A model generated the notes under the pieces. It ran no database searches and was not told the origin of the DNA. It was given only the letters and a program-made list of their open reading frames with translations. A program made the translations under genes and the position numbers. A stretch of DNA of 20,000 nt, taken from IMG/VR virus record IMGVR_UViG_3300013121_000015, positions 113,179 to 133,178 of that record; one strand, given 5' to 3'. Each line of letters opens with the position of its first letter. Within the stretch, counting starts at the first letter, position 1. The DNA comes from an uncultured virus (IMG/VR IMGVR_UViG_3300013121_000015). Taxonomy: Duplodnaviria > Heunggongvirae > Uroviricota > Caudoviricetes. Positions 1,359 to 19,702 of the stretch are shown here, piece after piece.

Positions 1359-1733
1359 ATGGAAACTTACGAGTCTTTCGCCATTCGTTGCCTTGACGCC
1401 CTGAGCGGCGCCATCTTTCTCCCTGACACGACCCTGACGGTCGTGGTCGCCTCGATGGTGGAGGGATCGTTCCCTCCACCGGCTGGACAGATCATCTGCT
1501 CCGCCCGCAGAGGCAACCTCTTCTTCTCCTGCTCCGGCTACCCTGCCGAGCGGGCCGAGGACGGCGTTGACCTCGGCTATGCCGAGGCCGAACTCATCGT
1601 CTTCGAGGGCGCCCACGAGGCGCTCGGCTATCTGCTGGAGACCATCGGCGCGGGCCGGGTCTCCACCGTCCTCGGGTCGGTCGAGGATCCCCTGACCGGC
1701 TCGGGCTTTCGGGCGCTGTGGGGGGCGTCATGA
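1359..1733 (+). CDS. hypothetical protein (124 aa)
   Basis: SD CAGGAG before ATG; ATGA overlap with the next ORF. Confidence 0.75.
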   Translation: METYESFAIRCLDALSGAIFLPDTTLTVVVASMVEGSFPPPAGQIICSARRGNLFFSCSGYPAERAEDGVDLGYAEAELIVFEGAHEALGYLLETIGAGRVSTVLGSVEDPLTGSGFRALWGAS

Positions 1734-1975
1734 GGCCCCGTCGGTCGGTTTCTTTGATCGTGTTCGTTGAGGGGCCGCGCCCCGACGGACGGGGTTGGCT
1801 GGAGTGTCTTGACGAGCGGTGGTGGTATCGCCGCTTCCGCACGATGATGCGCGCCGAGGGCGTTATGGCGCATCTTCGCCGTGCTGGCCACCAGGGTGAC
1901 CTGTGGCGGAAGGTTGAGCAATCCACATCGACGGGCGGGATCAGCCGCGTCGAGAAGACGTGGACATGGGGTTGA
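1730..1975 (+). CDS. small basic, Trp-rich hypothetical protein (81 aa)
   Basis: ATGA translational coupling at 1730-1733. Confidence 0.6.
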   Translation: MRPRRSVSLIVFVEGPRPDGRGWLECLDERWWYRRFRTMMRAEGVMAHLRRAGHQGDLWRKVEQSTSTGGISRVEKTWTWG

Positions 1976-1995
1976 CCCTCCGCGCCCTCCGGGGC

Positions 1996-2073
1996 GCCCC
2001 GTCGCGGGCTGCTGCTGCCCGCCTGACGAGCCCTCCAGTCGAGGGCCAGCCCCAGCAGGGGCGAAACGGGAGC
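1996..2073 (+). ncRNA. type III hammerhead ribozyme (with atypical, extended stem II)
   Basis: GUC 2001-2003; stem I GCGGGC/GCCCGC (2004-2022); CUGACGA 2023-2029; G2030-C2062 closes stem II; GAAA 2063-2066; stem III GC-CCCGU/ACGGG-A-GC. Confidence 0.75.
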
Positions 2074-2077
2074 AAGT

Positions 2078-2338
2078 ATGGACGAACAGACCCTCAGCGC
2101 TGTGTACCCGCTCGTGACGTTGGGGGCGACGCGCACCCCGGATACGCGCAGCCAGTTTGTGATCCACCTCCTGCGCGATCAGGAGTTGATCGCGCAGCGG
2201 CTCCAGGACATGCGCCAGCGGGCGCGAGCGGGGAGAGGCTACCCGAAGGGGTGGCTGGACGATCTACGGGCGGTGCGGGAGCGCCTCGCTGCGGTGGGCT
2301 GCCCGGAGGCAGGCCCCCTGCCGCCCATTGAGGACTGA
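2078..2338 (+). CDS. hypothetical helical protein (86 aa)
   Basis: SD GGGAG 2068-2072 before ATG 2078; protein-like composition. Confidence 0.7.
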   Translation: MDEQTLSAVYPLVTLGATRTPDTRSQFVIHLLRDQELIAQRLQDMRQRARAGRGYPKGWLDDLRAVRERLAAVGCPEAGPLPPIED

Positions 2339-2385
2339 CCCTCATCCCTCGCCCCTGGTGCGCCGGGGGCCTGAGCAGAGGATCA
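2335..2385 (+). repeat. intergenic direct repeat, copy 1 (51 bp, contains GC hairpin)
   Basis: 2348-2385 is identical to 2960-2997 (38 nt); 48/51 identity when the upstream CTGACCCTC is included. Confidence 0.95.
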
Positions 2386-2997: not shown

Positions 2998-3061
2998 ACC
3001 CGTGCTCGCCGGTCCGCGAGACGTGCTGTTCGGCCATGTGAGAGCCGATAGAGGAGCTACG

Positions 3062-3472
3062 ATGTACCCACTCGCAATCCACCCTCTCCTGGTACCAGTC
3101 GCCCGTGCCCTGGAGAGCGCCCACGGCGTATCGGGCCTCACCGTGGAGCCGATTCGTGAGGTTCGCACGGTCTGGGGCTCGTCGCCCCGGGGCACGCTCA
3201 GTGCGGCGAATCTCGTGGGCCCAGGCGCCCACTACACGGACGGTACGACAGAGAGGGGGTTCGCATCCTTAGTATGCGTCTCCCTCGGCAACGATGCCGA
3301 GCCCCGTAGGACGGGGCTGAGCGGCACGAACAGCGATGGCTCCCTGTGGTGGCAGACGGAGACCACCCACCGGGAGATGGTGGTCGTCGTCCGTGCCCCC
3401 GCCGAGGGGTGGACGATGGAGCAGTTCCAGTCCGCCATTCGGGAGGCCGGCGGGGCGGTCGGCTCGGGCTGA
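3062..3472 (+). CDS. hypothetical protein (136 aa)
   Basis: SD GAGGAG upstream of ATG 3062, preferred over the 3002 start in the ORF track. Confidence 0.75.
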   Translation: MYPLAIHPLLVPVARALESAHGVSGLTVEPIREVRTVWGSSPRGTLSAANLVGPGAHYTDGTTERGFASLVCVSLGNDAEPRRTGLSGTNSDGSLWWQTETTHREMVVVVRAPAEGWTMEQFQSAIREAGGAVGSG

Positions 3473-4843: not shown

Positions 4844-5031
4844 GGCCCCACCGTGCCAGCAAACGTCTGGACCGCCTGGAGAGCCTGGATGGCCGCGGGA
4901 CCACCCGCGATGGCCGCCAGCGCGCCCAGGATGGCCACGCTCAGCAAAACTCCGATCAGCCGTCGCAGGAAGAGGATCTCCTGGTCCCTGACGTGATCGG
5001 CCTCGTCGATGGTTGCCTGTGGACGGCTCAT
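4840..5031 (-). CDS. small single-TM membrane protein (63 aa), holin-like position
   Basis: Hydrophobic helix LIGVLLSVAILGALAAIAG; ATGA overlap with the tail-fibre gene stop. Confidence 0.65.
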   Translation of the reverse strand: MSRPQATIDEADHVRDQEILFLRRLIGVLLSVAILGALAAIAGGPAAIQALQAVQTFAGTVGP

Positions 5032-6410
5032 AGCAACTCTCCCATCGGCGGCCAGAAGTCCGCCGTCACGTTGGTCACCGTGGCCGCACCACCAGCCAGG
5101 GTATTGCGGTACGCGAAAAACCCGAAGGCCGGCGTAGACCAGCTCGCGCCGATCGTGCCGCCTCCGGACACGTCGTTATAGCCTCCGCTCACGCTGCCAT
5201 AGCAGGAGTACGCCTTCGGTAGTGTACCTGGGGCGAAGATGTTGATTTGAAGGTTGCCCGTGGAGGTCAGGGCTGCCGGTCCGGCCGCAGTATCATTGAC
5301 CGAGCAACCGCCACTGAGGGTCGCGGCGCTCTTTCCGATGGTACCCCACACTCCCCAGGACGACGGCGACCCGGATTGGCCGAACCAGAAGCCGGTCTGG
5401 TGGTAGGAGGCCGTCTCCTGGCTGCCCGCGTACGTGATCCGGATGGACGACGGCCCGCTGGGCGTCCACGTCACGGACGCGCCGGACGCGTTCTTGAGGT
5501 TGCCAGTGCCGTCCAGCTTCCAGAAGTCGAGCCGGCCAGTGGAGGGCTTGTTCGACGTCGTTCCGTAGCCGGCCGGGAGGCTGTAGCCGGACCCGCTCGG
5601 CACGATAGTCGCGGACGCGTCGGCCTGCGAAGTGTCTGGCGCGACGGGCGATCCGATGTTGACCCAGCTCCCCGCGATCTTCTGCTGGAGAACCGCGAGC
5701 GGGCTGCCGCTGCTCACGTAGGCATGGACCCGAACGCCCGTTACGGCAGTGCCGGGTTGAACCGACCCCCAGGCGCTGGAGCTGGTGCGCATCCAGGCCG
5801 TGATGCCGTGGCCCGCCACCGTCACAGCGCTACAGGCTGCGCCCGCCGAACCGCCGTCGCAGGTGCCTGAGTCTGAGGGGTCGCCCGTGACCGTGCAGGC
5901 GGATGCTGAATCGCACAGGAAAGTGATGGTCTGCCCATCGGCGTAGCCGGACAAGGCCGGGAGGTTCAGGGTGACGGTTCCCGACCCGGTGACGCGCACC
6001 ACACCGGCTGCGGGCGTGCAGGGGCTGGAGCAGGCGATGGAGCCCGCGCCGGCCCAGACGATGGCGTCCCGCGCCCCCGCCGCGGTGCTGCTCCCGGTGC
6101 CACCGTAGCCGACCGCTACTGCCGTGCCCTGCCAGGCCCCCGTCCCCACCGTGCCCAGCGTCGTGATGCTGCCGGAGCCCGTCCAGGTGCTCGGGTTGAC
6201 CGCGCCCCAGGAGGTCAGGTCCGCGTCATACGCCTGGACATCCGACCCGACCGCAACCCCGAGCGCTGTCCTGGCGCCCGCAGCCGTCGTCGCCCCGGTG
6301 CCGCCCTGCGAGACCGCGACGACCCGGGTGTACCCGAGCAGACCCGCGAGGGACAGCAGGACGATCCCGAGGGTGAGGAGACGCCGACGAAAGGTGGAGG
6401 TGTGCGCCAT
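5028..6410 (-). CDS. tail-fibre-like protein (460 aa) with N-terminal signal/TM segment
   Basis: Motifs typical of phage fibre shafts: VSQGGTGATTAAGARTALG, GSDVQAYDADL, TLGTVGTGAWQGTAVAVGYGGTG. G/S/T-rich. TGATG coupling to the upstream gene. Confidence 0.75.
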   Translation of the reverse strand: MAHTSTFRRRLLTLGIVLLSLAGLLGYTRVVAVSQGGTGATTAAGARTALGVAVGSDVQAYDADLTSWGAVNPSTWTGSGSITTLGTVGTGAWQGTAVAVGYGGTGSSTAAGARDAIVWAGAGSIACSSPCTPAAGVVRVTGSGTVTLNLPALSGYADGQTITFLCDSASACTVTGDPSDSGTCDGGSAGAACSAVTVAGHGITAWMRTSSSAWGSVQPGTAVTGVRVHAYVSSGSPLAVLQQKIAGSWVNIGSPVAPDTSQADASATIVPSGSGYSLPAGYGTTSNKPSTGRLDFWKLDGTGNLKNASGASVTWTPSGPSSIRITYAGSQETASYHQTGFWFGQSGSPSSWGVWGTIGKSAATLSGGCSVNDTAAGPAALTSTGNLQINIFAPGTLPKAYSCYGSVSGGYNDVSGGGTIGASWSTPAFGFFAYRNTLAGGAATVTNVTADFWPPMGELL

Positions 6411-7826: not shown

Positions 7827-8966
7827 ATGCACCACGCCACCCTGACCACCATGATCTTCGCGCTCACCGCTGGACTCGCCTCGGGTTGCCGGGGTGGGCA
7901 GGAGCAGGAGTGTCCCGGCTGGGAGTCGGGACAGCAGGACACGGGGGACGAGGCTGGCGAGGAGACCCCGTACCTGGACGTCATCGCAGAGATCGACCTG
8001 TCCTCCAACGACACCTACGGCCAGATCGTCTGGTACGACGCCGGGAAGGCGTTCGCGGTCAGCTTCCCTGGAGCCACGGACGGAGCCGGTAGGGTGGCAC
8101 TGCTGAGCGCCACGGGCGAGACCCTGGCCTCCGTCACGGGGCCGTCCACCTCTACCGGACTCGGCGCCACCCTGACCGTCGTCGATGACCTGCTCGTCTC
8201 TGGTGCGACTGATGGCACCGTGTACGCATGGTCGATGGAGACGGGCGACTCCGGACAGGTGGACGATCTCGCCGTGGCAACCGTGACGGGTGCTGGCGCA
8301 GCTCCAGCCGTCGCGCAGGTCGCCGACGAGCTGTGGATCGCGGACTCTGGGTCAGGGTCGCTCTACGCCGTCGATCTCGCCGATCTGCGAGACCAGGACC
8401 TCGGCACGCTGACGCCGGTGTCCAGACCGTGCGGCGACGTGAGTGGGTGCGGGATCTCCATGGTCGCCGCACCGGACGACTCGGGCGCGCTCCTCGGCCT
8501 CACCGGAGGCTACGCGCAGCATGTAAACGCGCGTGGCCAGCCGGACTGGTACGCCGCTGGCGGCTTCGTGCTGGCCGGCAGCGTGCCGGACGCGCCCGCT
8601 GGCGAGACCAGCGTGTCCATGGACAGCGAGGGCTTCCTTGTGGGCGGCTACCGCGACGGTCCCGCGCTTCCGCCGTCTGGGCGCTGGATCGCGGCGGACG
8701 GCTACGAGGCAGGCGACGTCGAGCCCTACCTGACGGCGGCCACCACTGGGATCCTGGACGGCGTCGAGTACCGGGCGGTCAGCATGACGGGCACGCTCTG
8801 GCGGCTCGGCGTGGACCCCAAGAGCGGCGACGGGCTCCTGACCGGTGACGCTGTGGATACGGCTTGCGCAATGCCGATCATCGCGAACAACGGGTGGGCG
8901 AAGATCGCTGTGATCTGCTCTGGCGAGACCGCGGCCACGATCTATGAGATTGGCTGGAAGAACTGA
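7827..8966 (+). CDS. lipoprotein with predicted beta-propeller (FG-GAP-like repeats), 379 aa
   Basis: SD GGAGG; lipobox LASG-C21; acidic linker; AVSFPG..GAGRVALL and GLGATL..DLLVSGA..GTVYAW resemble FG-GAP blades. Confidence 0.75.
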   Translation: MHHATLTTMIFALTAGLASGCRGGQEQECPGWESGQQDTGDEAGEETPYLDVIAEIDLSSNDTYGQIVWYDAGKAFAVSFPGATDGAGRVALLSATGETLASVTGPSTSTGLGATLTVVDDLLVSGATDGTVYAWSMETGDSGQVDDLAVATVTGAGAAPAVAQVADELWIADSGSGSLYAVDLADLRDQDLGTLTPVSRPCGDVSGCGISMVAAPDDSGALLGLTGGYAQHVNARGQPDWYAAGGFVLAGSVPDAPAGETSVSMDSEGFLVGGYRDGPALPPSGRWIAADGYEAGDVEPYLTAATTGILDGVEYRAVSMTGTLWRLGVDPKSGDGLLTGDAVDTACAMPIIANNGWAKIAVICSGETAATIYEIGWKN

Positions 8967-12177: not shown

Positions 12178-13824
12178 CTACCCCAGCAGCGACAGCCCCT
12201 TCCAGCGGGGCGCCCACACGTCGAACGTGACCTGACACCCGCCCCGGGTCCAGGACAGCTCCACGATGGTCGCGTGGACGTTCGTGAAGGCTGCGCGCGC
12301 CGGGTCCGTGTAGTACCCGCTCATCCCGGGTCGGAGGGTGAGGAAGGCGGCAGGGAACGCGCTCCAGGTCACGCGGTAGCGGGGGACCGCCCGGTGCATG
12401 ACGGTCCAGGCGAGCACGTACCGGGCCAGGGCGTCCGAGAAGATCAGGGGCGAGTCCAGGGTGTCGGCCACGCGCCGCCCGTCGTACCGCTCCGACAGGG
12501 CGCACAGCGGGCTGGTGGACGCGTCGATCTGGATCGTGGACGCGTAGTCGTCGTCCTGGGCGTCGTAGTTGTAGCGCAACTCGAAGCTGTTGTACCGGTC
12601 GTCCCGGCTGGACTCCGTATAGTCCGACTCCCGGAAGATCAGCGGGCCCGTCCCACCGGTCAGCCGGAACTCGACGCCGCGCCCGCCCGCTCCGAACGCG
12701 CGAGACAGCACGACCGGCCCCACGCCGCGCCCGCTGTAGGTCAGGTGGATCATCGGGAAGGACTGGAGGAACGTGCCCTCGACGTAGGAGAGCATGTCCA
12801 CGCCCTCGTCTCCGGAGCTGTTGATCAGCACCTTCGGGGCGAGTCCTGGCATCCGGGTCTGGGCACGCGCGAAGAGCTCGCCGTCCAGCCCGAGCGCGCC
12901 GAACCCCGTGAACCGCCGGTACAGGTGCTGGATCACCTCGACCGCCGACATGGCCCGCTCGCTGGAGTCCAGCGCCACGTCCACGTACACCGCGTCGTCG
13001 GTCGTCCAGGTCGCCGTGCTGGACGAGAAGTCGATGTACCGGACCCGACCGCCGAGCCCGTCCACGCCCGCCGTGTCCGTGGCGGGGGCGTAGGTGCCCG
13101 ACGCGACCTCGCCGTTGACGTAGGTGGCGCTGGCGGTCAGGGTCTGGGCCGGCTCCCCCAGGTACAGGTACTTCGGGTCCGCCGCGTCCTCGTAGACCAG
13201 CGGCGCCGCGACCTTCGGGTAGCCGTTGAGCACGTAGGGGTACCGCTGCCCGATGGCGCTGTCCGCCGCGCTGGGCCACCGGTCGGTGTCCACGGCCAGG
13301 CGCGGGACCTGCGCGGACTGCGTCGTCCGGAAGTCCGACACCTGGATCTGAACTTCCCCGGCCCGGTCTTCGCCCCAGTCCAGCCCGCCCGCGATCTCGC
13401 CGCGCATGACCACCCAGCGCAGGTCGTAGTCGTCTCCGTCCCGCTGGAAGCTGATCTCCGCGATGCCTGACAGCGTCGCGCCCTGGGCCAGCGCCGTGTG
13501 GAGTCCCAGGGGCTCACACGCCAGCTTGAGCGTGATGGTCCGAGCCTGGGCCGCCTGCTGGAATGGCTCCAGCGTGGTCTTGATCTCGGGCTCGTCCTGG
13601 AGCGCCGGCACGTACCGCCGCACGATCCGCGTGTCCGAGGCGCTGGTAGTCGTCATCGGGACGGCGGCGACCCAGTACCGGCGGTCGCCCAGGTTGAGTT
13701 CCACGGTCATCCGGACGCGGCGCAGCCCCGGATCCGCGCGCAAGATGGCGCCCCAATGGGCGTTGATGCGACCGTGCGCCCCGGACGTGCGCAACCAGTC
13801 TCGCATCGGGCGGGCGAGGTACAT
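12178..13824 (-). CDS. phage tail tip/hub-like structural protein (548 aa)
   Basis: True start MYLARPM at 13824 (SD GAGGAGG, TGATG coupling). Layout is typical of tail proteins (G..YPYVLNG; YNSFELRYNYD; LSERYDGRR; FLTLRPG). Confidence 0.7.
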   Translation of the reverse strand: MYLARPMRDWLRTSGAHGRINAHWGAILRADPGLRRVRMTVELNLGDRRYWVAAVPMTTTSASDTRIVRRYVPALQDEPEIKTTLEPFQQAAQARTITLKLACEPLGLHTALAQGATLSGIAEISFQRDGDDYDLRWVVMRGEIAGGLDWGEDRAGEVQIQVSDFRTTQSAQVPRLAVDTDRWPSAADSAIGQRYPYVLNGYPKVAAPLVYEDAADPKYLYLGEPAQTLTASATYVNGEVASGTYAPATDTAGVDGLGGRVRYIDFSSSTATWTTDDAVYVDVALDSSERAMSAVEVIQHLYRRFTGFGALGLDGELFARAQTRMPGLAPKVLINSSGDEGVDMLSYVEGTFLQSFPMIHLTYSGRGVGPVVLSRAFGAGGRGVEFRLTGGTGPLIFRESDYTESSRDDRYNSFELRYNYDAQDDDYASTIQIDASTSPLCALSERYDGRRVADTLDSPLIFSDALARYVLAWTVMHRAVPRYRVTWSAFPAAFLTLRPGMSGYYTDPARAAFTNVHATIVELSWTRGGCQVTFDVWAPRWKGLSLLG

Positions 13825-16800
13825 CAGCCCTCCTCGTCGAGGCGCAGCTTGAGGGTGCTGACCGAGAAGAACCGCCGCGAGCCTTCTTCGCCCTTGTACG
13901 GCACGCCCTGGTCGAGCGCGGTCCCGTCTCGGTTCAACACGCCGAACACGACGTGCGACCGCGCCCGCCACGTCGAGTCCATGATCAGCCCGACCGGGCG
14001 GGTGTACCCGTCGTGCGCCACCCGGAGCAGGTCGCGGATCATGCGGCCGACCTCGCCGCGACTGCCGGTGGGCGCCTCGGGGTCCACGCAGGTCACCTCC
14101 ATCCCGACGGACCGCGTGGACGGCCCGTCGTTGACGCGGTGCTCGATCCCGCTCTTGGCGCGGGCGGTCGTCATCATGGGCTCTTCGGTGTCCGTGTAGT
14201 CCACCTTGAGCGGTCCGTTCTGGCGGTTGAACTCCAGGTAGTGACCAGGCACGAGCGACCCGAGCCGGTGGGTGGACGTGGAGGTCCCGAGCGACGACCC
14301 CACCGCGGACAGGTCCGGGAAGACCAGCCGGAAGTACCGGTAGCGGTACCGGGACGCCGCGAGCAGCACCATGCGGTCCGCGTACAGGCACGCCTTGGCG
14401 CCCACAGTCACGCCGGCAGACGCGAGGTCCACGCCGTCCGCGACCGCCACCCAGCCGTCCTCGGAGAACTGGTCCGCGCGCACCGCGTAGGTCTTGCCGG
14501 TCGCGGTCCCCGCGACCGTAAACCGCAGGTACGTACCCAGCAACTCGCCGCGCCACGGCGCGAAGACCTCGCCCGTCGCCGCCTCGAGCTGGACGGCGCA
14601 CCCGTCCACGGCGATCACGGTCAGGTCGTCCCAGAGCGTCGCGTCCAGCTCCAGGCTCTCCGCTGGTCTGGTCCAGGAGTCGGAGTCGCTGAACTCTACC
14701 GTGCAGGTCCGGTCCACCGTGCCGACCAGCAGCATCGCCTCGACCTGCCAGCGCGCGCCGGTGCCGCTGTCGGCGTCTGCCTGGAACACAATGTCCTGCT
14801 CGGTCAGGGCGGTGCTCTCCCAGTAGTAGGAGGGAGAGTCCAGGCCCAGGTTGACCACGCCGCGCTGGTAGGCGAGCGCCGCGGTGAACGTGTCGCCCAG
14901 GAATGCGCCGCCTCCGCCCCATCCGACAGATACACCGCCCGTCACCAGGATCGGCTCCAGGGTCATTGGGGCGCCGAAGAGCCGGTTCGGCTTGGAGGAG
15001 TCGGTGCGTTGTCCGAGCGTGTTCTGGCGGGAGATCAACCACTCGTAGACGATGATCGTGGAGGTGCCGACCAGGCCGGCGCCCGCGATGACGCCCACGC
15101 GGAAAATCTGACCGCTGATCGAGCCGGAGGAGAGGGTGTACGACCCGTACTCGGTCCAGGCTCCAAGGGGCGCCGAACTCGCCAAACGCCACGCGATCCA
15201 GACCGTGTTGCCGTAGAGCGCGACACGGACCTCAACTTCGGACGCCGAATCCGTGGTGGACACCGTCGCAACGGCGCTTCCAGCGATGTTATCGTATAGA
15301 ACGATCTGCGTCCCAGCCGTGCGCACGGTGAAGTCATACCCCGTGGTCGTCACGCTGGAGGTCGTCGGCGCCATCACGCGAAACCCGCAGTCCTCGGCGC
15401 TGGTGGAGCGCGTGGCCGTCTGCTTGAGCCTGACGCAGAACGTGAACCCATGGTTGCTCGTAGAACCCCACGCCTCGGCGTTCGTGGATGGAACCACGGT
15501 CAAGATGTTCCTTGCGAGACCCGTCCCAGATGCGGTGTAGGTGGTACCGTCCGCACTCCACGTCACCGTCCCGCCGCCCAGCGTGGATTCCGTGTAGGGG
15601 GTCGTAGCGGCGCCCGTGGCCGATCCGAGACACGACGCCCAGGCGTAGCTGACCAGCTTCGGACTCGCTGCGAGAAGTGTAGCAGCTACGTCGCGGTTGG
15701 ACCTGGAAAGCGGCTTCGGATCCCAGGCGCCGAACTCGAAGCACCAGTGACCCGCGACCATCGGATCTGCCCCGCCCGCCGCGTCCTGGTCGAGAATGCC
15801 GGCGCTGACGAACCCTCGCGTTCCAGCCCAGACCGCCCGCGGACGGTACGGCCCGTAGTCGATGACGCCGCTGAACCCGAGCGCATAGGCGCTGCTCCAG
15901 TTGCTCGGGTCGTTGACGTCCACGATGGAGACCTTCGCCATCGCGATGTCGTTCACGTCCGACCCGACGTACCAGATGTAGAGGTGGATGGCGTCCGGAA
16001 CGCGGCAGAACCAGAGTCCCTTGACCACGACGGCCGTTCCCGTCCCGGACATGTCGATTTCGAGCGCGGAGTTGACAGCGAAGTCGTCGAGACCCGTCGC
16101 AATCAGGATCGAGACCTTGGCGGTATCAGAACCCGTGCCCTTGAGGGTGGCCATCAAGAACGTGCCGCCGACGTCGCCAACACCGACGACGTCGAACGGA
16201 TGGGTGCCGAGGAACACATTGCTGGACGTCTCGTGACTGTAGGTCGTCGCGGCCGTGCAGACCTTCCAGGAGGACCCGCGGTCGGACGACCCGAACTGGT
16301 AAAGGAACGTCGAGGTCGTCGTGCTCGTCAGCGTCGGCAGGCAGAAGATCCGCTCATAGTCCCCAGACACGGAGTAGACGTGATCGGAGGCGCCCGCGTA
16401 CCAGGCCGCGCCAGACCCAGCCCTTACGGCGATGTTCGTGGCCGCTAACGTCCAGGTGGCCCCGTCCGTGGAGGTGTAAAGGTCGAGGTCGAGGAACCCG
16501 TCTCGGGACACCTGCACGACCATCCGGAGCGTGCCATCGACCGACTCGGCCATGGCCAGCCCCATCTCGGTGCCGGTGGCATCCCCATCGACGACGGTGA
16601 TCGTCGTGCTCGACCAGGACTGGAGCGTGCTTGCGGCGCCAGCGTACCGCACCTGGATCGTCGTGGAGTCCGATACCCAGGCCACGATCAGCAGGTTGTT
16701 GACCGCCGAGTAGCACAGGGCGTGACCGTAGAGCTTCGTCGCGGTCGTGGCGGGCTTGCTGCGCTGGAGGATCTGCCAGGCGTTTTGGCTCTTCCAGTCG

Positions 16801-19535
16801 GCGTCGGTCGTTTCGGTGGCCAGCCTGTAGATCCAGCCACCATTGAAGCTGAACCCAGACCCCACGTTGTAAACGCTTCCACCCCCCTGCGTCCTGAGCG
16901 TGAGCTCTGTCGTCCCGGTCGGTTCGCCCTCCTGGTAGGCGTAGGACCCGCCGCGGTTGGACGTGGCCGCCTCGACGAGCCCAAGCACGGCGCCCGCCTC
17001 GGACGTGGCGGACACGACGTTGCCGGAGCCCTCCCAGTGCGGGTCCTGGAGAATCAGGTACCCGACCGGCACGTCCAGGTCGTCGGGGTCGGAGTTGACC
17101 TGAATGGCCTCGCTGTCGGCGTAGATGCTGCCCAGGTCGATGGCCTGGAACCAGCCGGTGACGGACGAGCTGGAGTCGTTGCGATCCCGGAGCCAGGTCT
17201 GGGTGGTCGGCCCCGTCAGCCTGGACTGGACGACCGCCGACGCGACGGAGTCCGCCGCCAGCGAGCACGCCGTGTGCGCCATGGGCAGGCGCCGCCCGCA
17301 GGTGTAGGCGAGGCTGTTGTAGGTCCCGTAGTGCTCCGACCGGACCGGTGCGTCCACGGTCAGGGTGCCAGTCGTGCCGGTGTTGGACGCGAGGTAGACC
17401 TGATTGACCGCAAGGTCCGCGTGGACCAGCACCTCGGTCAGCACCTCGTAGGGGGACGCCGCGTTGGACCAGACGCCCACCGCGACCGTCGAGGGCGACG
17501 TGCCGACGGTGACGCCGTCTCCCAGCGTGGCGACTGCGCCGGTGTAGTTCTGGTTGGCGTTGGCGCCGTCCGCGACCGCCGAGGCGAACAGGGCCGCGCG
17601 CGCCGCCGTGACCGCGCCGCCGGTCAGGCTGGGGGCGCTGAACTCGCCCGTGGCGTCCAGGTCCGCGCCGCCGGCCACGGCTTCGACGGCCTGCCGGCGC
17701 AGCGTCCAGGCGCTCCCCCACTCGATCACGTAGGCGCACGCCGTCATGGCCTGCATGGTCGCCGAGGACCGCCTGTGGAGCCGCACGCCCGCCGTGCCGA
17801 AGGGACGCCCGTAGACCGCGCCCACGGCGTTGTGGCCCGAGGTGGACCCCGATCCGTCCGTGGTGACGCCGCCGCCGCGGTAGCCGACCAGGACCTGCAC
17901 GCGGTCGAGGTCGCCGTAGGTCACGCCCGACAGCGTGGTCTCCGCGATCTGCCGGTCTGCGCTGGTCCCGGACATGGTGACGTCCACGACGGACCGCAGC
18001 CGGAAGCCCTGCTGGTCCGGGGAGCGCAGGCACTCCACGACCGTCACGGTCCCAACCCAGTCCGCGCCCGCCGCCGCGCGGGTCAGGATCAACCCGTTGG
18101 AGCCCGTGGCTTCCAGGTCGCCCGTCCCAGCGGGGTCGGAGGTCACGCGCGCGTTGACGTCGTCCACGTCCTGGGTGGACGCGCTCGCCGTCGTGCCCTG
18201 GATCATCACGAAGTAGTGGTCTGCCAGCGTGTAGAGCAGGGCCAGGGTGTACGTCGTGCCCGTGAACTGACCCGAGCCGACCCGGTAGGACGTGACGCGG
18301 AAGACCGGCAGCTTGCCGGCGGGCGTGTCGATGGCCCCGAAGTCCACCGTCTCGATCCAGCCCGCCCAGGACGCGCTGGGCGACGTGTCCGCCGGGGTCG
18401 CCGTGACCGCCGTCGACGACGTGGGGCGCGCGTGGATCTGCGTCTCGGACACGTCGCCCGCCGCCGTGGACGTGATCCCCGCCATGCACAGCCCCAGCCG
18501 CTCACCGCGCGTGCTGGCGACGTACAGGAGCCCGTCTGCCGTGCGGTAGGTCTCCGCGACCTGGGGCGCCGCCACGGTCACGCTGGACGCCCCGGAGCCG
18601 CTGCCCGTGGCCCGGAAGTCGTACTCCGCGACGAGCTGCTGGTGCGTCAGCACGTAGACGCTCGCCGACCGCGTCGTGATCCCCGCCATGCCGCCGACCG
18701 CCACGGTCGTCTCGGTCGCGTTCTGCGTCACGCCGTCGCCGATGGTCGCGACCTGCCCGAGGAAGCTGGCGCCCGGGTTGTTGCCGTCCGTGTAGCTGGC
18801 CATCCAGACCCAGGAGTTCGCCCGGGTGATCGTGTAGGTCAGCGCGCCGGTCGAGTAGTGACTGGTCGAAGCCAGGGTCGCGCCGGTGTTCGTCCCGGTC
18901 ACGTTGACCCGCTGGACCAGCCACTCGGCGCCCCACTGGACGCAGTAGGTCACGAGGGTCGCCGCCGCGAGGTTGCTGGAGGCGCTGGCGTACCGCTCGA
19001 CGTTGATCGTCGCCGTGGAGCTCGGGTAGATCCGGGCACCGCCGGTCTGGAGCTGCGCACTGGATGCGCTGCCGGACATGCCCCCGCCCCGGTACCCACC
19101 GAACAGCACGACCCGGGTAGCGTCCGGCCACGCCGTCGCGCAGGTGTCCGTGGTGGTCTGGACGCCGGTCCCCACGCTCGCCGCGAGCGAGGTCGCCTGC
19201 ACGTCCAGGAGGCGGAAGCCGGCGCCGTCCTCGTCGCGCAGGCACTCCACGACCACGACCTTCATCGCGCAGGGGTTGGCCGCCGTGGCTCGGGTCAGCT
19301 CCAGGTAGTTCCCGTCGGCCAGGTTCAGGTCGCCCGTCCCGTAGGGGTCTGCCGTCACCCGGACCAGCATGTCCGAGAGGTTGTAGACTGCGCTCGCGGC
19401 CACGCCCCACTCGACCATCGCGAAGTAGTGGGTGGACAGCTCGTGCCGTAGGTGAAGCCGGTAGACCGATCCCGTGAAGTCCGAAGAGGTGATCTCGTAG
19501 GTCTCGACGCGGAAGACGGGGGAACGGCTGGCCAT
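13824..19535 (-). CDS. large multidomain virion/tail protein (1903 aa): two tandem ~400-aa repeats, Asp-box propeller, lectin-like region, tail-type C-terminus
   Basis: SD CAGGAG before ATG 19535; T/S/G/A/V-rich; duplicated PVFRV..Y...FTG..Y.L.L...VT.DP.GTGDL...VVECLR...GFRL; Asp-boxes STDGATW and SSDRGSSW; YRYRYFRL. Confidence 0.85.
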   Translation of the reverse strand: MASRSPVFRVETYEITSSDFTGSVYRLHLRHELSTHYFAMVEWGVAASAVYNLSDMLVRVTADPYGTGDLNLADGNYLELTRATAANPCAMKVVVVECLRDEDGAGFRLLDVQATSLAASVGTGVQTTTDTCATAWPDATRVVLFGGYRGGGMSGSASSAQLQTGGARIYPSSTATINVERYASASSNLAAATLVTYCVQWGAEWLVQRVNVTGTNTGATLASTSHYSTGALTYTITRANSWVWMASYTDGNNPGASFLGQVATIGDGVTQNATETTVAVGGMAGITTRSASVYVLTHQQLVAEYDFRATGSGSGASSVTVAAPQVAETYRTADGLLYVASTRGERLGLCMAGITSTAAGDVSETQIHARPTSSTAVTATPADTSPSASWAGWIETVDFGAIDTPAGKLPVFRVTSYRVGSGQFTGTTYTLALLYTLADHYFVMIQGTTASASTQDVDDVNARVTSDPAGTGDLEATGSNGLILTRAAAGADWVGTVTVVECLRSPDQQGFRLRSVVDVTMSGTSADRQIAETTLSGVTYGDLDRVQVLVGYRGGGVTTDGSGSTSGHNAVGAVYGRPFGTAGVRLHRRSSATMQAMTACAYVIEWGSAWTLRRQAVEAVAGGADLDATGEFSAPSLTGGAVTAARAALFASAVADGANANQNYTGAVATLGDGVTVGTSPSTVAVGVWSNAASPYEVLTEVLVHADLAVNQVYLASNTGTTGTLTVDAPVRSEHYGTYNSLAYTCGRRLPMAHTACSLAADSVASAVVQSRLTGPTTQTWLRDRNDSSSSVTGWFQAIDLGSIYADSEAIQVNSDPDDLDVPVGYLILQDPHWEGSGNVVSATSEAGAVLGLVEAATSNRGGSYAYQEGEPTGTTELTLRTQGGGSVYNVGSGFSFNGGWIYRLATETTDADWKSQNAWQILQRSKPATTATKLYGHALCYSAVNNLLIVAWVSDSTTIQVRYAGAASTLQSWSSTTITVVDGDATGTEMGLAMAESVDGTLRMVVQVSRDGFLDLDLYTSTDGATWTLAATNIAVRAGSGAAWYAGASDHVYSVSGDYERIFCLPTLTSTTTSTFLYQFGSSDRGSSWKVCTAATTYSHETSSNVFLGTHPFDVVGVGDVGGTFLMATLKGTGSDTAKVSILIATGLDDFAVNSALEIDMSGTGTAVVVKGLWFCRVPDAIHLYIWYVGSDVNDIAMAKVSIVDVNDPSNWSSAYALGFSGVIDYGPYRPRAVWAGTRGFVSAGILDQDAAGGADPMVAGHWCFEFGAWDPKPLSRSNRDVAATLLAASPKLVSYAWASCLGSATGAATTPYTESTLGGGTVTWSADGTTYTASGTGLARNILTVVPSTNAEAWGSTSNHGFTFCVRLKQTATRSTSAEDCGFRVMAPTTSSVTTTGYDFTVRTAGTQIVLYDNIAGSAVATVSTTDSASEVEVRVALYGNTVWIAWRLASSAPLGAWTEYGSYTLSSGSISGQIFRVGVIAGAGLVGTSTIIVYEWLISRQNTLGQRTDSSKPNRLFGAPMTLEPILVTGGVSVGWGGGGAFLGDTFTAALAYQRGVVNLGLDSPSYYWESTALTEQDIVFQADADSGTGARWQVEAMLLVGTVDRTCTVEFSDSDSWTRPAESLELDATLWDDLTVIAVDGCAVQLEAATGEVFAPWRGELLGTYLRFTVAGTATGKTYAVRADQFSEDGWVAVADGVDLASAGVTVGAKACLYADRMVLLAASRYRYRYFRLVFPDLSAVGSSLGTSTSTHRLGSLVPGHYLEFNRQNGPLKVDYTDTEEPMMTTARAKSGIEHRVNDGPSTRSVGMEVTCVDPEAPTGSRGEVGRMIRDLLRVAHDGYTRPVGLIMDSTWRARSHVVFGVLNRDGTALDQGVPYKGEEGSRRFFSVSTLKLRLDEEG

Positions 19536-19702
19536 GGGTCGGCTCCTGCGGCCGAGGTAGCCCGGGATCTGGATCTGGCCAGCGCGCCCACGGGACAAGG
19601 CCGGGAGTCGAGGTGTGCGCGGGTAGGGCTACCCCTGGGGTTGGAGGTGCCAGCCGTGCTTTCTCCGACCGACCTGGACCGCGCTGACCCGGATCCTCGC
19701 CC

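What the first reader, a model, noticed from the sequence alone, without database searches (positions are those of the whole stretch)
1996..2080. Type III hammerhead ribozyme whose stem III hides the ribosome-binding site of the next gene
Seen: a complete catalytic core in the right order (GUC 2001-2003, stem I, CUGACGA, G-C closed stem II, GAAA, stem III). The 3' strand of stem III (2066-2073) contains the SD GGGAG, 5 nt before ATG 2078. Established: hammerheads cleave after NUH. Inference: cleavage after C2003 would free the 5' strand, expose the SD and cut the polycistronic mRNA. That would be a natural self-cleavage-activated translation switch, an architecture I know mainly from engineered ribozyme switches.
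Basis: partly seen in the sequence, partly recalled or inferred. Interest (0 to 1): 0.85.

Follow-up and report, generated by a model that had tools for sequence, protein, structure and literature searches.

The report
Phage hammerhead ribozyme overlapping a ribosome site
A self-cutting hammerhead RNA of an unusual build very probably sits between two small genes of a large GC-rich phage and shares three bases with the next gene's ribosome-binding site, but the evidence favours routine cutting of the long message over a translation switch.

Summary
Window 1998-2070 (+) carries every invariant hammerhead nucleotide in type III order, in the 102-nt gap between genes 1718-1975 and 2078-2338 of a 133-kb, 70% GC phage. 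It is the only such motif in the genome, and 300 random genomes gave none. Rfam Hammerhead_3 scores 33.4 bits, below its 48.5 cut-off.

I found 12 further distinct relatives in phage contigs, metagenomes and a Microvirga prophage. They keep the core while stems I, II and III covary; 0 of 500 shuffles reach the observed covariation.

The family is a structural variant. A 14-24 nt hairpin lies between CUGANGA and the true stem II, an insertion said to be absent from known hammerhead alignments (Eckert 2023). No member tested reaches Rfam's cut-off.

The Shine-Dalgarno GGGAG (2068-2072) shares three bases with stem III. That overlap occurs in only 3 of 12 sampled type III hammerheads with a nearby start codon. 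Folding models show no consistent unmasking after cleavage.

The most likely function is constitutive cutting of the polycistronic mRNA just ahead of the ribosome site. A cleavage-licensed translation cassette remains possible. In other metagenomes, contigs cover all or parts of the block 1973-2072 nearly unchanged, with different flanking sequence.

The parts
1718..1975 (+). Upstream gene, 85 aa, no known family; its stop codon TGA is 1973-1975
   Evidence: ORF list; GC3 phase; no Pfam or PHROG match
1973..2072 (+). 100-nt 'stop codon to SD' block, found nearly unchanged in other metagenomes with different flanking sequence
   Evidence: Logan contigs of a soil run (1973-2072, 4 differences) and a wastewater run (pieces 1973-2027, 1997-2057, 2028-2072, 1-3 differences each). 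Loose ends lie before 1973. A 1,690-nt contig goes from 2072 into 493 unrelated letters.
1976..1981 (+). CCCUCC just after the stop codon; its CUCC can pair with GGAG 2069-2072 in the non-hammerhead minimum-energy fold
   Evidence: MFE structures; inference only
1982..1997 (+). Hairpin P0: 6 bp with a UCCG loop, abutting stem III. It would be the 3'-terminal hairpin of the upstream cleavage product.
   Evidence: Folds; inside the conserved block; comparable hairpins in only some relatives
1998..2002 (+). Stem III, 5' strand (CCCGU), ending in U16.1
   Evidence: the inner four stem III pairs are paired in 9 of 9 aligned relatives, two of them covarying
2003..2004 (+). Predicted cleavage site: C17 (2003) | G1.1 (2004)
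   Evidence: Position in the hammerhead consensus; not tested
2004..2022 (+). Stem I hairpin: 6 bp with a 7-nt loop UGCUGCU (2010-2016)
   Evidence: all 6 pairs covary and are 100% paired in the 9-sequence alignment; 9 distinct stem I sequences among 11
2023..2029 (+). Core strand CUGACGA (C3-A9)
   Evidence: invariant except N7 in all relatives; a relative's C>T at 2027 is N7
2030..2048 (+). Inserted hairpin A (2030-2035/2041-2046) plus a 2-nt linker, between A9 and G10.1
   Evidence: Template parse of 11 relatives: inserts of 14-24 nt, always one or two hairpins. In L205 and L208 the base after CUGANGA is C, so it cannot be G10.1.
2049..2062 (+). True stem II: G10.1-C11.1 plus 3-4 further pairs; loop CAGCAG/AGCA complementary to loop I
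   Evidence: Pair 2 covaries (AU 8, GC 2, CG 1 of 11). Loop I to loop II complementarity is 3-5 bp in 11 of 11, without covariation.
2063..2066 (+). Core strand GAAA (G12-A15.1)
2066..2070 (+). Stem III, 3' strand (ACGGG)
2068..2072 (+). Shine-Dalgarno GGGAG of the next gene; G2068-G2070 lie inside stem III
   Evidence: 5-nt spacing to ATG 2078
2078..2338 (+). Downstream gene, 86 aa, no known family; two homologues at 87% and 83% identity that align with it over all 86 residues

Best explanation
Window 1998-2070 encodes a genuine, probably active type III hammerhead self-cleaving ribozyme.

It is transcribed as part of a polycistronic mRNA of small phage genes and cuts itself between C2003 and G2004.

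The upstream product ends in hairpin P0 followed by CCCGUC, with a 2',3'-cyclic phosphate (the chemistry is established for the class). The downstream product starts with a 5'-OH at G2004. It carries the folded ribozyme body as a leader directly ahead of GGGAG-N5-AUG.

The main job is constitutive processing and insulation of the next cistron, like a natural RiboJ. The 3-base overlap of the SD with stem III comes from the very short spacer, 12 nt from A15.1 to the AUG. It masks the site only until the 5-bp helix falls apart after cutting.

What the sequence data support: the motif, its non-random occurrence, covariation, and conservation in relatives. What is inferred: cleavage, the fate of the products, and the effect on translation.
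For: - Complete core and type III connectivity.
- One hit in the genome against 0 in 300 random genomes.
- 9-sequence alignment: 85.6% of cells paired against 69.8% shuffled; 16 pairs changed on both sides; 0 of 500 shuffles reach any of the five measures; sliding the partners drops pairing to 36-43%.
- 11 of 13 family members fit one strict template with an invariant core. Stem I pairs 1-5 and stem II pair 2 change on both sides.
- Differences seen in related metagenome contigs fall at N7 and in the inserted hairpin (2027, 2034, 2039), not in the core or stems I-III. One further difference is not listed.
- The hammerhead fold is within 2.7 kcal/mol of the MFE.
- The motif is on the sense strand and fills the gap between two co-directional genes. 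No promoter-like or terminator-like site lies there.
- 12 of 18 sampled type III hammerheads have an SD and a start codon 12-30 nt after A15.1.
- Published precedent (PMC3088659, passages read): hammerheads flank genes in prophages and cut roughly 2-kb polycistronic constructs. In the haloviruses HF1 and HF2 a hammerhead lies 13 nt before a start codon, with a mapped 5' end within 3 nt of the cleavage site.
Against: - No cleavage data exist.
- Rfam score is 33.4, below the 48.5 cut-off.
- A 19-nt insertion next to A9/G10.1 may slow catalysis. From recall, that position is part of a metal-binding site.
- This is the only hammerhead in the genome: no type I or II match at E <= 1. Published phage examples often come in clusters.
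- The loop-loop contact has no covariation.
- The near-identity of the block in relatives could reflect recent exchange and not selection.
Confidence: 0.62

Rival explanations
1. Cleavage-licensed translation cassette. The SD is held by sequence upstream of the cut: stem III strand 1998-2000, or CUCC 1978-1981 in the alternative fold. The next gene is then translated only from cut RNA. The whole stop-codon-to-SD block is a portable unit placed in front of different genes.
For: - 3 of 5 SD bases lie in stem III.
- Both the hammerhead fold and the MFE pair the SD with sequence 5' of the cut.
- The 5' product should dissociate, at -6 to -8 kcal/mol.
- The block ends at the last SD base. A relative's contig continues from there into 493 letters that do not align with the window.
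- The same overlap occurs in L061 and L082, with different stem III sequences.
- Earlier notes of this scan report the layout in other phages (unchecked leads).
Against: - The overlap is present in only 3 of 12 sampled cases with a nearby start. It is absent from the 8 other start-bearing members of this RNA's own subfamily.
- Modelled SD accessibility does not rise consistently after cleavage. For the window it rises in one context and falls in another. The mean change over 12 RNAs is about 0.
- Only 5 bp mask the site, and A2071 and G2072 are unpaired.
- Cleavage is expected to be fast and constitutive, so there is nothing to switch.
Confidence: 0.25
2. Conserved intergenic linker. The block is kept because it is a shared boundary at which related phages recombine gene modules. 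The ribozyme is a passenger or relic with little effect on expression.
For: - There are sharp limits of similarity at 1973 and 2072, with unrelated flanks in other metagenomes.
- The next two intergenic regions hold another shared 51-nt repeat, and all three begin with TGACCCTC.
Against: - Distant family members in unrelated contexts keep the catalytic core and covary in their stems. That needs selection on the RNA fold.
- The differences seen in close relatives avoid the core.
Confidence: 0.08
3. Chance motif or inactive look-alike in GC-rich DNA.
For: - The score is below Rfam's gathering score.
- The fold z-score of the region is unremarkable, at -0.54.
- Sub-threshold hits occur in 7 of 14 control genomes.
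Against: - 0 hits in 300 random genomes.
- 12 further distinct relatives, with covariation.
- The motif lies on the sense strand and fills most of an intergenic gap.
Confidence: 0.05

Closest known systems
Type III hammerhead ribozyme (Rfam RF00008) and the intergenic hammerheads of phages and prophages (Perreault et al. 2011, PMC3088659; passages read)
   Same: - Same catalytic core and three-helix junction, open at stem III.
- Intergenic, sense-strand position between small phage genes.
- A proposed loop-loop helix, with stem I two pairs longer than stem II. The paper's supplementary legend links that length difference to pseudoknots in type III.
   Different: - A 14-24 nt hairpin is inserted between CUGANGA and stem II.
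- Scores below the Rfam cut-off in all 13 members tested.
- A single copy in this genome, not a cluster.
HHphage of haloviruses HF1 and HF2 (Perreault et al. 2011, discussion passage read)
   Same: A hammerhead a few nucleotides (13) upstream of a start codon at the head of a cistron, with a mapped transcript 5' end near the cleavage site.
   Different: An archaeal virus; a core with an insertion near C3; salt-dependent activity. No SD overlap is described in the passages I read.
Engineered SD-masking hammerhead aptazymes (described in PMC7445771, passages read) and the RiboJ insulator (recalled, not looked up)
   Same: - A ribozyme helix contains the SD, and cleavage detaches the masking strand.
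- As with RiboJ, a type III ribozyme body stays at the 5' end of the downstream message.
   Different: - The engineered switches use an extended stem I of a type I hammerhead plus a ligand-binding aptamer.
- Here the SD is in stem III, only 3 bases are masked, and no aptamer is evident.
Permuted hammerheads and the 'block' rule (Eckert et al. 2023, PMC10085705; section 'An unexpected hammerhead ribozyme permutation' read)
   Same: A natural hammerhead variant that standard models miss.
   Different: - This is not a permutation; the order is the classic S-C-G of type III.
- It breaks that paper's working assumption that nothing longer than 1-2 nt separates CUGAnGA from its adjacent stems.
Self-cleaving ribozymes used for translation initiation by RNA viruses of fungi and plants (Lopez-Galiano et al. 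2026, PMC13725137; abstract read)
   Same: A viral ribozyme in a leader whose cleavage is tied to translation of the downstream ORF.
   Different: Those are eukaryotic, cap-independent systems in RNA virus genomes, mostly with type I hammerheads. This is a bacterial SD-dependent context in a DNA phage.

Membership tests
Hammerhead ribozyme, type III (RF00008) | Invariant core: C3 U4 G5 A6 N7 G8 A9, G12 A13 A14, the A15.1-U16.1 pair, and H17 at the cleavage site | tested here: met
   CUGACGA 2023-2029, GAAA 2063-2066, A2066-U2002, C2003
Hammerhead ribozyme, type III (RF00008) | Three helices around the core, with stems I and II closed and stem III open | tested here: met
   Descriptor hit; Infernal alignment over model positions 1-54
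Hammerhead ribozyme, type III (RF00008) | Score at or above Rfam's gathering threshold (48.5 bits) | tested here: not met
   33.4 bits; no match at gathering. Of 12 relatives, the best scores 34.8 bits and 4 are reported at E <= 1. The shortfall comes from the long insertion.
Hammerhead ribozyme, type III (RF00008) | Helices supported by covariation in relatives | tested here: met
   - Stem I: 6 of 6 pairs covary.
- Stem III: 2 of the 4 inner pairs covary.
- Stem II: pair 2 covaries.
- 0 of 500 shuffles reach the observed values.
Hammerhead ribozyme, type III (RF00008) | CUGANGA directly adjoins stem II (no more than 1-2 nt between), as stated for known alignments by Eckert 2023 | tested here: not met
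   There are 14-24 nt between A9 and the G-C-closed helix that adjoins GAAA in 11 of 11 template-fitting members, and 19 nt in the window. In the window alone a 5-bp continuous stem II is possible, but it costs about 16 kcal/mol.
Hammerhead ribozyme, type III (RF00008) | Tertiary contact between loops I and II | tested here: inconclusive
   Complementarity of 3-5 bp in 11 of 11 members (5 bp in the window), with no covarying pair. L133 lacks it.
Hammerhead ribozyme, type III (RF00008) | Site-specific self-cleavage | not testable with these tools
   Needs a transcription and cleavage assay. No RNA run holding the stretch was listed.
SD-masking ribozyme switch (engineered aptazyme type) | The SD is sequestered in a ribozyme helix whose other strand is removed by cleavage | tested here: met
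   G2068-G2070 pair with C1998-C2000, which lie 5' of the cut; duplex -8.4 kcal/mol. The masking is partial: 3 of 5 bases.
SD-masking ribozyme switch (engineered aptazyme type) | A sensor domain that makes cleavage conditional | tested here: inconclusive
   No Rfam riboswitch or aptamer match in 1900-2200. The inserted hairpin varies in sequence and in number between members, which argues against a conserved ligand pocket.
SD-masking ribozyme switch (engineered aptazyme type) | Translation output depends on cleavage | not testable with these tools
   Folding models give no consistent change.

The most novel reading that the evidence does not exclude
The 100-nt stop-codon-to-SD block (1973-2072) is a portable ribozyme-plus-ribosome-site cassette that phages place ahead of interchangeable cargo genes. 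Translation would be licensed only after self-cleavage. The hairpin inserted at the A9/G10.1 position would be a control point (a folding timer, or a protein or ion sensor). That would make it a natural counterpart of engineered hammerhead switches.
Probability: 0.12. Interest if true: 0.8.

Novelty: new variant of a known kind. Interest (0 to 1): 0.5.

Why it matters
What hammerheads do in phages has been open since they were found there in 2011. A 2019 review still says more work is needed (PMC6765202, passage read).

This locus offers a compact test case: a single ribozyme, a defined upstream hairpin, an SD that is part of the ribozyme, and relatives that carry the same block in front of other genes.

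Separately, the family has a whole hairpin between CUGANGA and stem II. This shows that the hammerhead core tolerates an interruption that current models and search descriptors assume does not occur. None of the 13 members tested passes Rfam's threshold, so hammerheads of this build are being missed in phage and metagenome annotation.

Tried and rejected
- The Rfam scan of the whole window at gathering threshold was blank. The evalue mode was needed.
- The window's first 8 kb gave no match in INPHARED phages by blastn.
- Close relatives of three proteins were sought in IMG/VR: the two flanking proteins and the 379-aa protein at 7827-8966. None was found.
- The downstream protein was sought in five other hammerhead-bearing virus records. 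None was found, so the ribozyme is not tied to that gene.
- Pfam and PHROGs on the ORFs of the window gave nothing informative near the ribozyme.
- No type I or type II hammerhead models matched in the genome at E <= 1.
- The look-up of sequencing runs listed no RNA holder, so in vivo 5' ends could not be examined.
- A search for relatives of the L061/L082 hammerhead found only those two.
- An upstream protective hairpin is not a general family feature. It is clear in about 6 of 14.
- MAFFT misaligned the variable stem II region. I used a reduced alignment and a template parse instead.
- I rejected the continuous stem II (2030-2034 with 2058-2062) as the main fold. It is about 16 kcal/mol worse and impossible in L135, L136, L205 and L208.
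- I also rejected an intrinsic terminator or a promoter in the gap.
- The second model hit in L134 is not a type III copy. Rfam gives it a weak type II match.
- Papers on a natural SD-masking hammerhead, or on a hairpin inserted beside CUGANGA, were sought. None turned up, within a library that lacks most subscription journals.

Full report
**Context**

The window is the last 20 kb of a 133,178-bp IMG/VR virus record with direct terminal repeats, 70% G+C. Third-position GC shows a run of small + strand genes: 230-544, 666-1253, 1359-1733, 1718-1975, 2078-2338, 2453-2950 and 3002-3472. None has a Pfam or PHROG match. The finding lies in the 102-nt gap between 1718-1975 and 2078-2338, on the sense strand. 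ATG 2078 is the first possible start in its frame. Two 86-aa homologues (87% and 83% identity) align with the 86-aa product over its full length.

**The observation**

- GUC 2001-2003
- a perfect 6-bp stem I (2004-2009/2017-2022) with a 7-nt loop
- CUGACGA 2023-2029
- GAAA 2063-2066
- stem III 1998-2002/2066-2070
- GGGAG 2068-2072
- ATG 2078

Stem III is 5 contiguous pairs, so three of the five SD bases are in it, not the whole 2066-2073.

Rfam's Hammerhead_3 aligns end to end at 33.4 bits (E 1.2e-5 on 301 nt). This is below the 48.5-bit cut-off because 24 nt must be treated as an insertion.

A descriptor scan of both strands of the genome finds this site and no other. It finds none in 300 Markov-random genomes of the same composition. 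No type I or type II hammerhead is present. No promoter-like or terminator-like site lies in the gap.

**Relatives**

Pattern scans built from the core and the stem II region gave the following.

| Source | Type III look-alikes |
|---|---|
| IMG/VR, first pattern | 7 of 133 matches (98 type I, 28 neither) |
| IMG/VR, second pattern | 4 of 4 loci |
| JGI metagenomes | 6 of 45 loci |
| GTDB genomes | 1 of 21 loci: a Microvirga lupini prophage, identical to the IMG/VR provirus L134 |
| IMG/VR, relaxed pattern | 6 of 6 loci, 3 of them new |

After removing duplicates, 12 distinct sequences besides the window's form one family: L133, L134, L135, L136, L151, L152, L168, L170, L179, L205, L207 and L208.

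On a 9-sequence alignment:
- 85.6% of cells pair, against 69.8% after shuffling.
- 16 pairs change on both sides.
- 0 of 500 shuffles reach any of the five measures.
- Sliding the partners by 1-3 columns drops pairing to 36-43%.
- All six stem I pairs covary and are 100% paired.
- The four inner stem III pairs are always paired, and two of them covary.

A strict template fits 11 of 13. L133 and L134 do not fit. Among the 11 there are 9 distinct stem I sequences and an invariant core. This is strong comparative evidence for a functional hammerhead fold.

**A structural variant**

In the 11 template-fitting members, the helix that directly precedes GAAA is a 4-bp, G-C-closed hairpin with loop YAGCAG. 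Its second pair covaries (A-U 8, G-C 2, C-G 1).

Between CUGANGA and that helix lie 14-24 nt. These form one hairpin, in three members with a GNRA loop, or two hairpins in L205. In L205 and L208 the base after CUGANGA is C, so the first hairpin cannot supply G10.1.

The second hairpin is therefore stem II. In the window it is 2049-2062, and 2030-2048 is an insertion between A9 and G10.1.

The window could also form a continuous stem II (2030-2034 with 2058-2062). That fold is about 16 kcal/mol worse than the two-hairpin hammerhead fold, which itself is within 2.7 kcal/mol of the MFE.

Loop I (UGNNGCU) is complementary to the stem II loop over 3-5 bp in 11 of 11 members, and 5 bp in the window. 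No pair covaries, so this contact is only proposed. Stem I is two pairs longer than stem II, a geometry that Perreault et al. associate with pseudoknots in type III (PMC3088659, supplementary legend passage).

Eckert et al. 2023 state that known hammerhead alignments have no insertion longer than one or two nucleotides between CUGAnGA and the adjacent stems (PMC10085705, section read). This family breaks that rule. None of the 12 relatives reaches Rfam's cut-off. The best scores 34.8 bits, and only 4 are reported at E <= 1.

My literature searches found no description of such an insertion. The library lacks most subscription journals.

**The ribosome-site question**

Of 18 type III hammerheads sampled, 12 have a recognisable SD and a start codon of a real-looking ORF 12-30 nt after A15.1. 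Placement just ahead of a cistron is therefore the recurring feature.

The SD overlaps stem III in only 3 of those 12: the window, plus L061 and L082, which belong to another subfamily. Among the family's 8 other members with a nearby start codon, the SD lies 7-18 nt after A15.1. The window simply has the shortest spacer, 12 nt.

The masking strand lies 5' of the cut and should leave after cleavage (duplex -8.4 kcal/mol, net about -6 kcal/mol).

Partition-function models do not show a dependable unmasking:

| Case | SD unpaired, uncleaved | SD unpaired, cleaved |
|---|---|---|
| Window, first context | 0.01-0.11 | 0.20 |
| Window, second context | 0.32 (0.37 with the hammerhead enforced) | 0.13 |
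| Mean change over 12 RNAs | | -0.01 to +0.02 |

In this GC-rich RNA the freed SD readily pairs with the coding region. I therefore rank the switch as a rival, not the best explanation.

**A conserved module**

Logan contigs were laid on 1400-2700.
- The block 1973-2072 is present with 4 differences in one soil-run contig.
- It is present in pieces, with 1-3 differences each, in a wastewater run.
- The sequence before 1973 differs (loose ends).
- One 1,690-nt wastewater contig runs from 2028-2072 into 493 letters that do not align, and then into sequence like 2365-2700. That joint has 45 letters on its shorter side. The soil-run joints have only 21 and 29 letters on the shorter side and are weak.
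- The listed differences are at 2027 (N7), 2034 and 2039 (the inserted hairpin). One further difference is not listed.

The block runs from the upstream stop codon to the last SD base. It includes a CCCUCC motif and a 6-bp UCCG-loop hairpin (1982-1997) that abuts stem III and would end the upstream product.

Similar upstream hairpins occur in about 6 of 14 type III hammerheads examined, so this is not a general rule.

The near-identity of the block may reflect recent module exchange as much as selection.

**Mechanism and ranking**

| Reading | Confidence |
|---|---|
| Constitutive self-cleavage that cuts the polycistronic RNA and leaves a structured 5'-OH leader directly ahead of the SD; brief, incidental masking | 0.62 |
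| Cleavage-licensed translation cassette | 0.25 |
| Recombination linker or relic | 0.08 |
| Chance motif | 0.05 |

None of it has been tested experimentally. No RNA run holding the stretch was listed.

**Earlier notes of this scan**

One search lists other phage windows where a type III hammerhead's stem III overlaps an SD. They agree that the layout recurs. They are unchecked leads, not evidence.

Noticed in passing
window 2335-2385 and 2947-2997: A 51-nt repeat, 94% identical, starts at the stop codons of two successive genes and folds into a GC-rich hairpin. All three intergenic regions, including the hammerhead block, begin with TGACCCTC. A related wastewater contig holds the element twice. 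It has no Rfam match.
   Followed up: partly
L134 1739-1811 (Microvirga lupini Lut6 prophage; L198 holds the same prophage's type III hammerhead): A possible type II hammerhead (RF02276, 22.6 bits, below the cut-off of 37) lies about 500 nt downstream of the type III family member. One or two small ORFs may therefore be bracketed by two ribozymes.
   Followed up: partly
L136, L151, L152 (downstream of the hammerhead): Three family members with GNRA-looped inserts are not followed by a start codon. They are followed by GC-rich, apparently structured non-coding sequence with recurring CATAGC-type motifs. They also share a long G/C hairpin upstream.
   Followed up: no
window 13824-19598 (-): A 1,924-codon ORF with third-position GC of 0.92, so very probably a real gene, has no Pfam match. 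It was not scanned against PHROGs.
   Followed up: partly
L002-L132 (IMG/VR): 98 of 133 matches to a simple core pattern are type I hammerheads with 10-15 nt between the fixed parts. Up to four copies occur in one 63.5-kb contig (L053-L056).
   Followed up: no
window 5028-6410 (-): The 460-aa ORF has a short N-terminal match to a PHROG tail-fibre family (E 3e-6). It is the only functional hint in the window.
   Followed up: no
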